From Eledone cirrhosa (taxonomy: Eukaryota): 64,000 nucleotides of DNA. The stretch covers positions 56,358,001 through 56,422,000 of the forward strand of contig OZ024740.1 in the NCBI GenBank assembly GCA_964016885.1, written 5' to 3'. The notes under the pieces are model-generated. The model worked only from the letters and a program-made list of their open reading frames with translations. It had not been told where the DNA came from and ran no database searches. Each line of letters begins with the position of its first letter. Positions within the stretch are counted from its first letter, which is position 1. Both the position numbers and the translations under genes were made by a program. This document shows, piece after piece, positions 29,337-40,021 of the stretch.

Positions 29337-32300
29337 ATTAAGTTAAAGATGTACATCCATATATGTATACTGAAATACTAGTATGTATATGAATACACAC
29401 ACGTATACATATGTAGGTGTACCAAGTTTTTTCACTGGTCACTTTACTGTGAGTGGCCAGCTATTCTGTATGTAAACACACAGACAAACCGGTTTTTAGA
29501 GTCATACTGGTTTTTGAGGAAACACCTCTCCTCTATTCTCCAGAAAGCCAGACAAGGAATATTGAACTAGTTTCGTTGTTGTTACAACTCATCAGCAATA
29601 TTTACCTATCTTCCGGCCTCTCTAGAGAATCGTAAAAGCACATATCGTTATATGCTTTTTCTATGAAAATTAGTAGTGGGCAGACTAATTTGCATAGAGT
29701 GTGAGTAAGTACCGGTTCAACGGAGACGATAAAAACAAATAACGAAACGAAATTAAACTTCGTTTCGTTTGTAACTCACTTTTGTATGACTGACGCTTAA
29801 ACAATTAAGTTAAAGATGTACATCCATATATGTATACTGAAATACTAGTATGTATATGAATACACACACGTATACATATGTAGGTGTACCAAGTTTTTTC
29901 ACTGGTCACTTTACTGTGAGCGGCCAGCTATTCTGTATGTAAACACACAGACAAACCGGTTTTTAGAGTCATACTGGTTTTTGAGGAAACACCTCTCCTC
30001 TATTCTCCAGAAAGCCAGACAAGGAATATTGAACTAGTTTCGTTGTTGTTACAACTCATCAGCAATATTTACCTATCTTCCGGCCTCTCTAGAGAATCGT
30101 AAAAGCACATATCGTTATATGCTTTTTCTATGAAAATTAGTAGTGGGCAGACTAATTTGCATAGAGTGTGAGTAAGTACCGGTTCAACGGAGACGATAAA
30201 AACAAATAACGAAACGAAATTAAACTTCGTTTCGTTTGTAACTCACTTTTGTATGACTGACGCTTAAACAATTAAGTTAAAGATGTACATCCATATATGT
30301 ATACTGAAATACTAGTATGTATATGAATACACACACGTATACATATGTAGGTGTACCAAGTTTTTTCACTGGTCACTTTACTGTGAGCGGCCAGCTATTC
30401 TGTATGTAAACACACAGACAAACCGGTTTTTAGAGTCATACTGGTTTTTGAGGAAACACCTCTCCTCTATTCTCCAGAAAGCCAGACAAGGAATATTGAA
30501 CTAGTTTCGTTGTTGTTACAACTCATCAGCAATATTTACCTATCTTCCGGCCTCTCTAGAGAATCGTAAAAGCACATATCGTTATATGCTTTTTCTATGA
30601 AAATTAGTAGTGGGCAGACTAATTTGCATAGAGTGTGAGTAAGTACCGGTTCAACGGAGACGATAAAAACAAATAACGAAACGAAATTAAACTTCGTTTC
30701 GTTTGTAACTCACTTTTGTATGACTGACGCTTAAACAATTAAGTTAAAGATGTACATCCATATATGTATACTGAAATACTAGTATGTATATGAATACACA
30801 CACGTATACATATGTAGGTGTACCAAGTTTTTTCACTGGTCACTTTACTGTGAGTGGCCAGCTATTCTGTATGTAAACACACAGACAAACCGGTTTTTAG
30901 AGTCATACTGGTTTTTGAGGAAACACCTCTCCTCTATTCTCCAGAAAGCCAGACAAGGAATATTGAACTAGTTTCGTTGTTGTTACAACTCATCAGCAAT
31001 ATTTACCTATCTTCCGGCCTCTCTAGAGAATCGTAAAAGCACATATCGTTATATGCTTTTTCTATGAAAATTAGTAGTGGGCAGACTAATTTGCATAGAG
31101 TGTGAGTAAGTACCGGTTCAACGGAGACGATAAAAACAAATAACGAAACGAAATTAAACTTCGTTTCGTTTGTAACTCACTTTTGTATGACTGACGCTTA
31201 AACAATTAAGTTAAAGATGTACATCCATATATGTATACTGAAATACTAGTATGTATATGAATACACACACGTATACATATGTAGGTGTACCAAGTTTTTT
31301 CACTGGTCACTTTACTGTGAGCGGCCAGCTATTCTGTATGTAAACACACAGACAAACCGGTTTTTAGAGTCATACTGGTTTTTGAGGAAACACCTCTCCT
31401 CTATTCTCCAGAAAGCCAGACAAGGAATATTGAACTAGTTTCGTTGTTGTTACAACTCATCAGCAATATTTACCTATCTTCCGGCCTCTCTAGAGAATCG
31501 TAAAAGCACATATCGTTATATGCTTTTTCTATGAAAATTAGTAGTGGGCAGACTAATTTGCATAGAGTGTGAGTAAGTACCGGTTCAACGGAGACGATAA
31601 AAACAAATAACGAAACGAAATTAAACTTCGTTTCGTTTGTAACTCACTTTTGTATGACTGACGCTTAAACAATTAAGTTAAAGATGTACATCCATATATG
31701 TATACTGAAATACTAGTATGTATATGAATACACACACGTATACATATGTAGGTGTACCAAGTTTTTTCACTGGTCACTTTACTGTGAGCGGCCAGCTATT
31801 CTGTATGTAAACACACAGACAAACCGGTTTTTAGAGTCATACTGGTTTTTGAGGAAACACCTCTCCTCTATTCTCCAGAAAGCCAGACAAGGAATATTGA
31901 ACTAGTTTCGTTGTTGTTACAACTCATCAGCAATATTTACCTATCTTCCGGCCTCTCTAGAGAATCGTAAAAGCACATATCGTTATATGCTTTTTCTATG
32001 AAAATTAGTAGTGGGCAGACTAATTTGCATAGAGTGTGAGTAAGTACCGGTTCAACGGAGACGATAAAAACAAATAACGAAACGAAATTAAACTTCGTTT
32101 CGTTTGTAACTCACTTTTGTATGACTGACGCTTAAACAATTAAGTTAAAGATGTACATCCATATATGTATACTGAAATACTAGTATGTATATGAATACAC
32201 ACACGTATACATATGTAGGTGTACCAAGTTTTTTCACTGGTCACTTTACTGTGAGTGGCCAGCTATTCTGTATGTAAACACACAGACAAACCGGTTTTTA

Positions 32301-37600: not shown

Positions 37601-40021
37601 TTTAACTTAATTGTTTAAGCGTCAGTCATACAAAAGTGAGTTACAAACGAAACGAAGTTTAATTTCGTTTCGTTATTTGTTTTTATCGTCTCCGTTGAAC
37701 CGGTACTTACTCACACTCTATGCAAATTAGTCTGCCCACTACTAATTTTCATAGAAAAAGCATATAACGATATGTGCTTTTACGATTCTCTAGAGAGGCC
37801 GGAAGATAGGTAAATATTGCTGATGAGTTGTAACAACAACGAAACTAGTTCAATATTCCTTGTCTGGCTTTCTGGAGAATAGAGGAGAGGTGTTTCCTCA
37901 AAAACCAGTATGACTCTAAAAACCGGTTTGTCTGTGTGTTTACATACAGAATAGCTGGCCACTCACAGTAAAGTGACCAGTGAAAAAACTTGGTACACCT
38001 ACATATGTATACGTGTGTGTATTCATATACATACTAGTATTTCAGTATACATATATGGATGTACATCTTTAACTTAATTGTTTAAGCGTCAGTCATACAA
38101 AAGTGAGTTACAAACGAAACGAAGTTTAATTTCGTTTCGTTATTTGTTTTTATCGTCTCCGTTGAACCGGTACTTACTCACACTCTATGCAAATTAGTCT
38201 GCCCACTACTAATTTTCATAGAAAAAGCATATAACGATATGTGCTTTTACGATTCTCTAGAGAGGCCGGAAGATAGGTAAATATTGCTGATGAGTTGTAA
38301 CAACAACGAAACTAGTTCAATATTCCTTGTCTGGCTTTCTGGAGAATAGAGGAGAGGTGTTTCCTCAAAAACCAGTATGACTCTAAAAACCGGTTTGTCT
38401 GTGTGTTTACATACAGAATAGCTGGCCACTCACAGTAAAGTGACCAGTGAAAAAACTTGGTACACCTACATATGTATACGTGTGTGTATTCATATACATA
38501 CTAGTATTTCAGTATACATATATGGATGTACATCTTTAACTTAATTGTTTAAGCGTCAGTCATACAAAAGTGAGTTACAAACGAAACGAAGTTTAATTTC
38601 GTTTCGTTATTTGTTTTTATCGTCTCCGTTGAACCGGTACTTACTCACACTCTATGCAAATTAGTCTGCCCACTACTAATTTTCATAGAAAAAGCATATA
38701 ACGATATGTGCTTTTACGATTCTCTAGAGAGGCCGGAAGATAGGTAAATATTGCTGATGAGTTGTAACAACAACGAAACTAGTTCAATATTCCTTGTCTG
38801 GCTTTCTGGAGAATAGAGGAGAGGTGTTTCCTCAAAAACCAGTATGACTCTAAAAACCGGTTTGTCTGTGTGTTTACATACAGAATAGCTGGCCACTCAC
38901 AGTAAAGTGACCAGTGAAAAAACTTGGTACACCTACATATGTATACGTGTGTGTATTCATATACATACTAGTATTTCAGTATACATATATGGATGTACAT
39001 CTTTAACTTAATTGTTTAAGCGTCAGTCATACAAAAGTGAGTTACAAACGAAACGAAGTTTAATTTCGTTTCGTTATTTGTTTTTATCGTCTCCGTTGAA
39101 CCGGTACTTACTCACACTCTATGCAAATTAGTCTGCCCACTACTAATTTTCATAGAAAAAGCATATAACGATATGTGCTTTTACGATTCTCTAGAGAGGC
39201 CGGAAGATAGGTAAATATTGCTGATGAGTTGTAACAACAACGAAACTAGTTCAATATTCCTTGTCTGGCTTTCTGGAGAATAGAGGAGAGGTGTTTCCTC
39301 AAAAACCAGTATGACTCTAAAAAACGGTTTGTCTGTGTGTTTACATACAGAATAGCTGGCCACTCACAGTAAAGTGACCAGTGAAAAAACTTGGTACACC
39401 TACATATGTATACGTGTGTGTATTCATATACATACTAGTATTTCAGTATACATATATGGATGTACATCTTTAACTTAATTGTTTAAGCGTCAGTCATACA
39501 AAAGTGAGTTACAAACGAAACGAAGTTTAATTTCGTTTCGTTATTTGTTTTTATCGTCTCCGTTGAACCGGTACTTACTCACACTCTATGCAAATTAGTC
39601 TGCCCACTACTAATTTTCATAGAAAAAGCATATAACGATATGTGCTTTTACGATTCTCTAGAGAGGCCGGAAGATAGGTAAATATTGCTGATGAGTTGTA
39701 ACAACAACGAAACTAGTTCAATATTCCTTGTCTGGCTTTCTGGAGAATAGAGGAGAGGTGTTTCCTCAAAAACCAGTATGACTCTAAAAACCGGTTTGTC
39801 TGTGTGTTTACATACAGAATAGCTGGCCACTCACAGTAAAGTGACCAGTGAAAAAACTTGGTACACCTACATATGTATACGTGTGTGTATTCATATACAT
39901 ACTAGTATTTCAGTATACATATATGGATGTACATCTTTAACTTAATTGTTTAAGCGTCAGTCATACAAAAGTGAGTTACAAACGAAACGAAGTTTAATTT
40001 CGTTTCGTTATTTGTTTTTAT
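34601..40021 (+). repeat. right arm of 467-bp tandem array (~11.6 units), inverted relative to left arm, HHR on plus strand
   Basis: Reverse complement of the left-arm unit. 467-bp periodicity (ORF hits 34978...39648). Ends in (TA)n. Confidence 0.97.
35011..35055 (+). ncRNA. minimal type I hammerhead ribozyme (first of 11 copies at 35011+467n)
   Basis: AATATTG-CTGATGA-GTTG taacaa CAAC-GAAA-CTAG-TT-CAATATT. Stem I is 7 bp, stem II is 4 bp, stem III is the palindrome ACTAGT, the core is intact, and the predicted cleavage triplet is GUU. Confidence 0.88.

What the first reader, a model, noticed from the sequence alone, without database searches (positions are those of the whole stretch)
29337..40021. 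10.7-kb palindrome built from a 467-bp hammerhead-ribozyme repeat (retrozyme-like array)
Seen: about 23 almost identical non-coding 467-bp units, 22 of which include an intact minimal type I HHR, arranged as two head-to-head arms between (TA)n tracts. Known: minimal HHRs with palindromic stem III occur in Penelope pLTRs and in non-LTR retrozymes (newt satellite 2, schistosome Sm-alpha), which yield monomeric and circular RNAs. Inference: this is a very recent insertion made by rolling-circle reverse transcription of a 467-nt circular RNA by a PLE RT, deposited as a giant inverted concatemer. I do not know of this combination of size and geometry being described.
Basis: partly seen in the sequence, partly recalled or inferred. 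Interest (0 to 1): 0.95.

Follow-up and report, generated by a model that had tools for sequence, protein, structure and literature searches.

The report
Giant palindromic retrozyme, Penelope-type insertion
This 10.7-kb mirror-image array is one young copy of an abundant ribozyme-bearing parasitic repeat (a retrozyme), and its ends and variants suggest that a Penelope-type reverse transcriptase copied a small RNA circle many times from both sides of one DNA cut, a step long proposed for retrozymes that can now be tested.

Summary
Observation confirmed: two head-to-head arms (11.3 and 11.6 units of 467 bp, 22 intact type I hammerheads, 7 substitutions in 10.7 kb). The locus is not unique. The 3.0-Gb genome holds 5,142 exact hammerhead cores and larger palindromes (up to 17.8 kb). 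Across 77 fetched loci the architecture is stereotyped. RNA-sense 3' ends face outward into (TA)n. In 47 of 53 two-arm loci one arm ends at unit position ~229-234 and the other at ~303: the Penelope-like (PLE) two-site 'tail', here ~74 nt. Arms cross the ribozyme cleavage site seamlessly, and 5' ends do not pile up there. Founder variants are fixed in every unit of both arms; this locus's haplotype occurs 23 times in the assembly, all here. Founder variants are A>G-rich in RNA sense (12/27 versus 8/74 singletons), which suggests edited RNA templates. Best reading: a non-LTR retrozyme inserted by dual PLE target-primed reverse transcription on a monomeric circle. Not shown: cleavage, circular RNA, the autonomous partner, long-read support. 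Some later DNA-level duplication is evident. Both halves (retrozymes; PLE inverted/tail geometry) are known; I found no paper joining them. New variant of a known kind; interest 0.6.

The parts
29171..29338 (.). (TA)n target tract, left flank (83.5 repeats)
29337..34605 (-). Left arm: 11.28 units of the 467-bp retrozyme, hammerhead sense on -; its 3' end at 29337 is unit position 228 (short site S; numbering from the cleavage site)
34601..34605 (.). Inversion junction: 5-nt microhomology shared by the two arms (unit position 97 of the left arm meets position 20 of the right), inside a 7-bp local hairpin
34601..40021 (+). Right arm: 11.61 units, hammerhead sense on +; its 3' end at 40021 is unit position 303 (long site L)
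39947..40021 (+). 75-nt 'tail' (unit 229-303) present on the right arm only; holds a 13-bp hairpin (about 39981-40009) just before the L end
40022..40030 (.). Short TA remnant of the target, right flank
35002..35064 (+). One type I hammerhead (first of 11 on +): helix I 7 bp plus bulged extension, helix II 4-5 bp, palindromic helix III, GUU triplet, predicted cleavage after 35048
29542..29613 (-). One type I hammerhead of the left arm (Rfam HH9, 37.7 bits)
29921..33190 (-). Six left-arm units with the private variant A111G in a period-3 pattern (29921, 30388, 31322, 31789, 32723, 33190); found nowhere else in the assembly
34918..34925 (+). ATGCAAAT octamer (unit 337-344), conserved in the ~69%-identical sister families; role unknown

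Best explanation
The array is one very young insertion of a non-autonomous hammerhead retroelement (non-LTR retrozyme) mobilised in trans by an endonuclease-bearing Penelope-like element. SHOWN from sequence: dispersed family, two fixed 3' ends about 74 nt apart used one per arm, head-to-head arms, TA targets, seamless units, founder variants shared by both arms. INFERRED: (1) tandem transcripts self-cleave to 467-nt monomers that are ligated to circles; (2) a PLE RT-endonuclease, probably a dimer, cuts both strands of a (TA)n tract and primes two cDNAs on the same RNA, one at site S (~229-234) and one at site L (~303); (3) each RT runs round the circle, here about 11 laps each; (4) the two cDNA 3' ends meet through a few bases of microhomology and are filled in, leaving a palindrome with a tail on one arm; (5) some arrays are later reshaped by unequal exchange. 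My odds: PLE-type dual priming of a retrozyme RNA about 0.85; a monomeric circle as the main source of the multi-unit arms about 0.6-0.65.
For: End rule: 119 of 128 arms end at 228-235 or 298-304. 47 of 53 minus-then-plus loci pair one S end with one L end, and none pairs S+S or L+L. Seven more single-arm loci carry a 12-22-nt inverted stub ending at the other site. Short-read contigs of run X1 break off into TA repeats at the same two places (34815 = unit 234; 34884 = unit 303). This matches the two RT start sites and both-strand extension of an Anolis PLE in vitro (PMC11167929, parts 1-2 read) and the inverted copy with a tail at one end and TA bias (PMC8557442 passages). Both flanks are TA in 43 of 51 loci; L144 shows a ~14-bp target duplication in non-TA DNA. 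Autonomous RT+GIY-YIG ORFs of 938 and 1096 aa are in the genome; one family also uses two TA-joined ends about 65 nt apart (L093/L094 versus L107). Template not a cleaved linear monomer: 92 of 97 arms cross a cleavage site; 9 of 489 crossings differ, six of them one locus-wide change; 2 of 127 5' ends lie within 10 nt of the site against 5.4 expected. One founder for both arms: arms of one locus differ at 43 of 15,099 sites against 2.3% between loci; the 148C+274G haplotype occurs 23 times in the assembly, all in this locus, on both arms. Born long: 1 singleton substitution in 10,648 bases here, 1 in 17,740 (L139m), 0 in 11,910 (L155m); 74 singletons against 17 multi-unit variants in 50 young loci. 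RNA stage: 12 of 27 distinct founder variants are A>G in RNA sense against 8 of 74 singletons (Fisher p 4.5e-4). The circular fold is -146.5 kcal/mol, z -8.7 against 60 shuffles. Hammerhead helices I and II covary across 9 family members while the core stays nearly fixed.
Against: No autonomous element sharing sequence with the unit was found in 48 GIY-YIG loci plus L116, a small part of 10,596 candidates. Cleavage and circular RNA are untested; in PMC11167929 uncleaved RNA was the main substrate in vitro, and in the 2026 preprint 8 of 9 predicted retrozymes did not cleave. Multi-unit blocks in L134 and L138m are best read as later duplications, so DNA-level expansion happens. The period-3 A111G pattern is in the left arm only, which one monomer circle does not explain. 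A haplotype that looked private in my sample (L123m) occurs in 7 loci, so only this window's haplotype is shown private; its source could lie on the unassembled homologue. L059 has two arms both ending at 229, but 958 bp apart; it was left out of the 53. A>G against T>C alone gives Fisher p 0.058, and ADAR's 3'-G preference (recalled) is not seen (2 of 12).
Confidence: 0.62

Rival explanations
1. Same PLE dual priming, but the template is a long uncleaved read-through transcript of a tandem source array, primed internally at any unit; no circle is needed.
For: Uncleaved RNA was the dominant substrate for the Anolis PLE (PMC11167929). The GUU triplet and 2-bp helix III predict weak monomer cleavage (inference). 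Non-fixed variants shared by both arms in a dimer-like order (L045, L036, L111, L149) show that multimeric templates, linear or circular, are sometimes used. Arrays of 23-29 units exist as possible sources.
Against: No source array with this locus's haplotype is in the assembly (23 of 23 hits here). Copying from linear arrays can only shorten them, so new variants fixed over 15-25 units in both arms (L150, L152, L155m) still need a monomer bottleneck and re-amplification at some generation.
Confidence: 0.2
2. The element lands short (1-2 units per arm, ordinary PLE geometry) and the arms are then lengthened in the DNA by unequal exchange or slippage, as for a minisatellite; this is the model favoured in the 2026 preprint.
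For: Two-unit block duplications in L134 and L138m, the mosaic of L154 and the period-3 variant here. Median arm length is only 970 bp. Local amplification is proposed in 10.64898/2026.07.22.740005.
Against: Singletons outnumber multi-unit variants 74 to 17. The longest arrays are the cleanest and show no arm-specific fixed change. Among the loci fetched, older subfamilies (93-97% identity) are mostly 1-3 units long, the reverse of growth with age, though my sampling favoured long young loci.
Confidence: 0.12
3. The palindrome is a fold-back or chimeric-read artefact, or a mis-assembled repeat.
For: Near-perfect inverted repeats are a known long-read failure mode (recalled). In one search no contig was listed as bridging this locus's own junction. 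The exact unit count could not be checked against reads.
Against: Arms differ in length, phase and variants, and the two flanks are unrelated. The S/L rule holds in 47 loci with different centres, including older diverged subfamilies. Short-read contigs show the same two ends.
Confidence: 0.03
4. The element is moved by another machinery: LINE twin priming, or a DNA rolling-circle or fold-back transposon.
For: L1 twin priming also gives head-to-head inverted inserts with target duplications (PMC2837659, search listing and abstract start only). No PLE with shared sequence was found.
Against: Both ends are fixed internal sites without a poly(A) or simple-repeat tail of their own, and there are no terminal inverted repeats with DNA-transposon ends. 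Two fixed start sites are reported as unique to PLEs (PMC11167929). PLE fragments in this same window form the same palindromes (21088-21747, 18698-19023).
Confidence: 0.03

Closest known systems
Animal non-LTR retrozymes (Cervera & de la Pena 2020, PMC7229834; review PMC7761336; Li, Clavereau & Pollet 2026, bioRxiv 10.64898/2026.07.22.740005)
   Same: Non-coding, AT-rich tandem unit with one type I hammerhead per unit, short palindromic helix III, highly self-paired predicted circle, thousands of copies, PLEs in the same genome; circle-templated multimeric cDNA is their proposed life cycle.
   Different: In the parts read, these papers describe tandem arrays only: 'inverted' and 'tail' have no relevant hit in either main text, and the review says the repeats show no motif pointing to a partner. 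Here the arrays are two-armed palindromes with fixed PLE-type ends. The unit (467 bp) is just above the 150-450 bp of the 2020 paper but inside the 51-972 bp of the preprint. No pLTR homologue was found.
Endonuclease-bearing Penelope-like element insertions: inverted 5'-truncated copy plus tail (PMC8557442; PMC3846280; PMC11167929)
   Same: Head-to-head inverted arms, a tail on one end only, two internal RT start sites, AT/(TA)n targets, short palindromes or microhomology at the centre, occasional target duplication.
   Different: No ORF. Each arm is a concatemer of up to 29 units rather than part of one element. The tail is about 74 nt rather than 30-40. The one-S-one-L pairing is nearly strict (47 of 53).
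Non-autonomous Chlamys PLEs such as MRC1 (PMC8557442 passage)
   Same: Non-coding, PLE-mobilised, multicopy head-to-tail insertions, recently active.
   Different: They mostly lack hammerheads and share 3' sequence with their autonomous partner; here a hammerhead is in every unit and no partner sequence was found.
L1 twin priming (PMC2837659, listing only)
   Same: Two target nicks each prime a cDNA; the 5' ends meet head-to-head through microhomology.
   Different: In L1 one primer uses the poly(A) end and the other a variable internal site (recalled); here both are fixed internal sites and both arms are multimeric.

Membership tests
Non-LTR retrozyme | Short tandem unit of a few hundred bp, GC below 50% | tested here: met
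   467 bp, about 36% GC
Non-LTR retrozyme | Type I hammerhead in every unit | tested here: met
   22 of 22 complete positions; Rfam HH9 E 1e-7 but under the gathering score; covariation in helices I and II among 9 relatives (related rows inflate that control)
Non-LTR retrozyme | No coding capacity | tested here: met
   longest stop-free frame 62 aa
Non-LTR retrozyme | No LTR, primer-binding site or polypurine tract | not tested
   no LTR is seen in the arm maps; PBS and PPT were not searched for
Non-LTR retrozyme | Highly self-paired predicted circular RNA | tested here: met
   -146.5 kcal/mol, z -8.7 against 60 dinucleotide shuffles
Non-LTR retrozyme | Self-cleavage of the transcript | not testable with these tools
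   needs an in vitro assay
Non-LTR retrozyme | Monomeric linear and circular RNA in vivo | not testable with these tools
   needs RNA from the organism
Non-LTR retrozyme | Dispersed, mobile copies; PLEs in the same genome | tested here: met
   5,142 exact cores; loci on more than 15 contigs; RT+GIY-YIG ORFs
EN+ Penelope-like element (autonomous) | ORF with RT and GIY-YIG endonuclease | tested here: not met
   unit is non-coding; the element is at most a non-autonomous client
PLE-mobilised insertion | Inverted 5'-truncated copy, head-to-head | tested here: met
   53 minus-then-plus loci; the only plus-then-minus case (L043) is two separate insertions 1.2 kb apart
PLE-mobilised insertion | Two fixed 3' ends; tail on one arm only | tested here: met
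   119 of 128 arm ends; 47 of 53 loci S+L; same ends in short-read contigs
PLE-mobilised insertion | (TA)n or AT-rich target | tested here: met
   both flanks TA in 43 of 51 loci
PLE-mobilised insertion | Target-site duplication | tested here: inconclusive
   clear in L144 (~14 bp), likely in L112 and L125; unreadable in pure TA, including this locus
PLE-mobilised insertion | Sequence shared with the pLTR of an autonomous PLE | tested here: inconclusive
   none in 48 GIY-YIG loci plus L116; 150 of 10,596 candidates were scored and 48 loci read
Minimal PLE-type hammerhead (min-HHR) | No helix III nucleotides, long helix II, short helix I | tested here: not met
   2-bp palindromic helix III, 4-5-bp helix II, 7-bp helix I against the definitions in PMC4209133

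The most novel reading that the evidence does not exclude
Two Penelope reverse transcriptases load about 74 nt apart on one 467-nt hammerhead RNA circle and chase each other round it, each anchored to one side of a cut TA tract. In one event they write palindromes of up to about 38 units. A-to-I edits made on the base-paired circle are copied into every unit, so RNA editing is a main source of heritable new subfamilies of this element. This would be genomic evidence that retrozyme circles are the transposition template and that PLEs are their mobilisers.
Probability: 0.3. Interest if true: 0.82.

Novelty: new variant of a known kind. Interest (0 to 1): 0.6.

Why it matters
Two questions are open in the papers read: which enzyme moves animal retrozymes, and whether their abundant circular RNAs are really the template. 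Co-occurrence and pLTR similarity were the evidence so far. This family carries the PLE-specific two-start-site signature on nearly every insertion, with multi-lap arms and single-founder variants, so it links the two and names the RNA region (unit ~215-305) and the two start positions to test with a purified PLE protein. The near-strict one-S-one-L pairing constrains the unexplained PLE tandem/inverted mechanism and fits an asymmetric dimer. It also shows a route that keeps seeding 5-18-kb near-perfect palindromes in an animal genome. If the A>G bias is editing, RNA edits become heritable in this element.

Tried and rejected
Rfam at gathering thresholds: no hit in the window; the miRNA and snoRNA hits are low-complexity hairpin noise. 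Search for the autonomous partner: BLASTN and a two-family nhmmer profile over 48 GIY-YIG loci and L116 found only further retrozyme copies beside PLEs. A 5.4-kb gap between opposite hammerheads (L111) turned out to be a later insertion with LINE-like ORFs, judged by eye. A profile search of the genome with several PLE families could not be run, so the partner remains open. RNA expression: no RNA holder listed; no evidence either way. This locus's junction was not shown bridged by contigs of four runs; contigs cannot show absence. A DNA search with a second subfamily unit returned no candidates (common words are skipped). The idea that every locus-fixed variant is private was rejected: the L123m haplotype is in 7 loci. 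The idea that periodic variants prove dimer or trimer circles was rejected as a general rule: L134 and L138m break the period. The octamer as an essential promoter is doubtful: a haplotype that destroys it has 7 loci; a paper search on snRNA-type promoters in newt satellite 2 gave nothing usable. Left out of counts: L062 (many indels), L059 (mixed subfamilies, arms 958 bp apart), L148 (secondary insertion; used for end pairing only); L051 was also left out. Twenty further loci were planned but not obtained. Earlier scan notes on this genome or sequence: none.
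Full report
OBSERVATION. The array is as described. Self-comparison and TRF give two arms of a 467-bp unit, 29337-34605 (11.3 units) and 34601-40021 (11.6 units); the left arm matches 39946-34678 at 99.87%. The hammerhead core is present 11 times on - in the left arm and 11 times on + in the right, so the RNA-sense strands point away from the centre. There are 7 substitutions in all and no frame over 62 aa. 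Rfam HH9 matches at E 1e-7, below its gathering score. Helices I and II covary among 9 family members; the core and the palindromic helix III are invariant apart from the variable core position, one core substitution in L107 and the cleavage base (the rows are related, so the shuffle control is generous). By the definitions in PMC4209133 (passages) this is a canonical short-helix-III type I, expected to cleave best as a dimer. The arms meet through a 5-nt microhomology. The TA tract is long on the left and about 5 repeats on the right.

IT IS A FAMILY. The window lies in a 3.0-Gb assembly. The exact 31-nt core occurs 5,142 times, control 0. The first 100 hits fall in 27 loci over 56 Mb, which extrapolates to roughly 1,400 loci. 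I mapped 77 loci: the best matches, all loci listed, and multi-unit loci picked, so the sample leans to young, long copies. Larger palindromes exist: 8.7+29.4 units (17.8 kb, L139m) and 17.6+8.0 units (12.0 kb, L155m). Sister families at about 69% identity have the same build and homologous ends, two of them in this window. Near-identical units with the 467 period are also in runs labelled as three other organisms; what they are was not pursued.

THE ENDS ARE PENELOPE ENDS. Numbering from the cleavage site, 51 of 128 arms end at 228-235 (S) and 68 at 298-304 (L). Of 53 minus-then-plus loci, 47 pair one S with one L and none pairs S+S or L+L. The other six have one odd end or an assembly gap. 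L059 (both 229, but 958 bp apart and of mixed subfamilies) was left out. Seven single-arm loci carry a 12-22-nt inverted stub ending at the other site. Short-read contigs of run X1 run into TA repeats at the same two places. Both flanks are TA in 43 of 51 loci, and L144 has a ~14-bp target duplication. This is the PLE pattern: an inverted 5'-truncated copy, a tail on one end and TA bias (PMC8557442, passages), and head-to-head inverted junctions (PMC3846280, passages). An Anolis PLE cuts and extends both strands, starts at two internal RNA sites that define the tail, and is predicted to be a dimer (PMC11167929, parts 1-2 of 4). The genome has 10,596 GIY-YIG candidates and long RT+GIY-YIG frames with the cysteine linker of Neptune/Nematis type. 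One such family also has two TA-joined ends about 65 nt apart. None of the 49 PLE loci read shares sequence with the unit, so the partner is unidentified.

WHAT WAS THE TEMPLATE? Not a cleaved linear monomer: 92 of 97 arms run past a cleavage site; 9 of 489 crossings differ, six of them one locus-wide change; 5' ends are roughly uniform, with 2 of 127 near the site against 5.4 expected (KS p 0.085). Both arms share a founder: 43 differences in 15,099 sites within loci against 2.3% between; the own partner arm is nearest in 30 of 38 with ties, strictly in 14. This locus's 148C+274G haplotype occurs 23 times in the assembly, all here, on both arms. The longest arrays are almost free of substitutions, and singletons outnumber multi-unit variants 74 to 17 in 50 young loci, as expected if arrays are born long. 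A monomer that is amplified many times in one event is what rolling-circle RT predicts (model in PMC7229834, parts 2-4 of 6; PMC7761336, passages). Against this: the L123m haplotype, private in my sample, has 7 loci; L134 and L138m show later block duplications; L045, L036, L111 and L149 look like dimer templates; and the period-3 A111G variant, unique in the assembly, is in the left arm only. A trimer template for one arm, or later duplications, would both explain it; I cannot choose.

A>G BIAS. In 50 young loci, 12 of 27 distinct variants fixed across a locus are A>G in RNA sense (T>C: 2), against 8 of 74 singletons (T>C: 8). Fisher p is 4.5e-4 against all other changes and 0.058 against T>C alone. 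The idea arose; the loci fetched afterwards added 11 new founder variants, 6 of them A>G and none T>C. Three haplotypes carry three or more A>G, and sites cluster at 337-346 in a predicted stem. The 12 sites lie on 8 haplotypes, so they are not independent. Editing of a base-paired RNA fits; so do RT error bias and selection for G-U-tolerant changes. The ADAR neighbour preference (recalled) is not evident.

MECHANISM. Shown: the anatomy above. Inferred: cleavage and ligation to a 467-nt circle; a PLE protein cuts both strands of a TA tract; two RTs prime at S and L on the same RNA and run round it; the two cDNA ends anneal by microhomology (overlaps mostly -2 to 9 nt); fill-in; later reshaping. 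About 0.85 for PLE dual priming, about 0.62 for the full reading with a monomer circle. Rivals: linear multimer template 0.2, growth in DNA 0.12, artefact 0.03, other machinery 0.03.

NOVELTY. Retrozymes, their proposed circle-templated multimers, their proposed PLE origin (bioRxiv 10.64898/2026.07.22.740005, parts 1-3 of 5) and the PLE inverted/tail geometry are all in print. Searches for the combination and for the editing angle (listing only) gave no paper describing two-armed retrozyme concatemers with PLE tails, single-founder variants or an A>G signature. Word searches in the two main retrozyme papers found no relevant 'inverted' or 'tail'. Supplements were not read (those of the preprint are closed), and subscription papers are not in the library. 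Unchecked notes of this scan report similar PLE-type tandem arrays without ribozymes in other genomes, so the pattern may be general. Interest 0.6.

Noticed in passing
window 26624-27025 and 49668-50545; L107:1890-2464; L060:1-2700; L105:8550-9901; L087:2694-3264: Sister retrozyme families (~69% identity, 420-530-bp units) with the same hammerhead core, homologous S and L ends and, in L060, a multi-unit head-to-head palindrome.
   Followed up: partly
window 21088-21747, 18698-19023, 56388-58139: Head-to-head palindromes made of PLE pieces: a GIY-YIG fragment, a hammerhead-bearing pLTR pair, and an RT fragment with inverted ends.
   Followed up: partly
window 11429-11731, 17502-18424, 40060-40712, 41610-41925, 42358-42976, 45036-45413, 48069-48616: Further fold-back elements in or beside TA tracts. 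The one at 40060-40712 appears to have duplicated the TA-containing target into which the array later inserted.
   Followed up: no
L116:4410-7900: A PLE-like element with a 738-aa frame (no Pfam hit), two direct and one inverted hammerhead-bearing pLTR.
   Followed up: partly
L093, L094, L102, L107 (3' non-coding end): An autonomous Neptune-type family whose hammerhead has the compensatory U3-A8 core variant and two TA-joined ends about 65 nt apart.
   Followed up: partly
unit 337-344 (window 34918-34925): ATGCAAAT octamer conserved across sister families, yet destroyed by three A>G changes in a haplotype with 7 loci. An snRNA-type promoter in newt satellite 2 is recalled, not confirmed by a call.
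   Followed up: partly
L145: The cleavage triplet is changed in all units: GUC in the left arm and first right-arm unit, GUG in the rest of the right arm.
   Followed up: no
L154; L138m; L134: Mosaic or period-2 variant patterns that show exchange or duplication inside arrays.
   Followed up: partly
runs X4, X5, X6 (organisms B, C, D): Units about 98-99% identical with the same 467 period under three other organism labels: close relatives, diet or environment DNA, or transfer; not resolved.
   Followed up: no
flanks of L059, L108, L045: SINE-like flank repeats resemble those of octopod cephalopods (recalled, not tested); if so, high ADAR activity would fit the A>G bias.
   Followed up: no
window 27218-27275: Another isolated type I hammerhead-like motif of a different family, seen by eye.
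   Followed up: no
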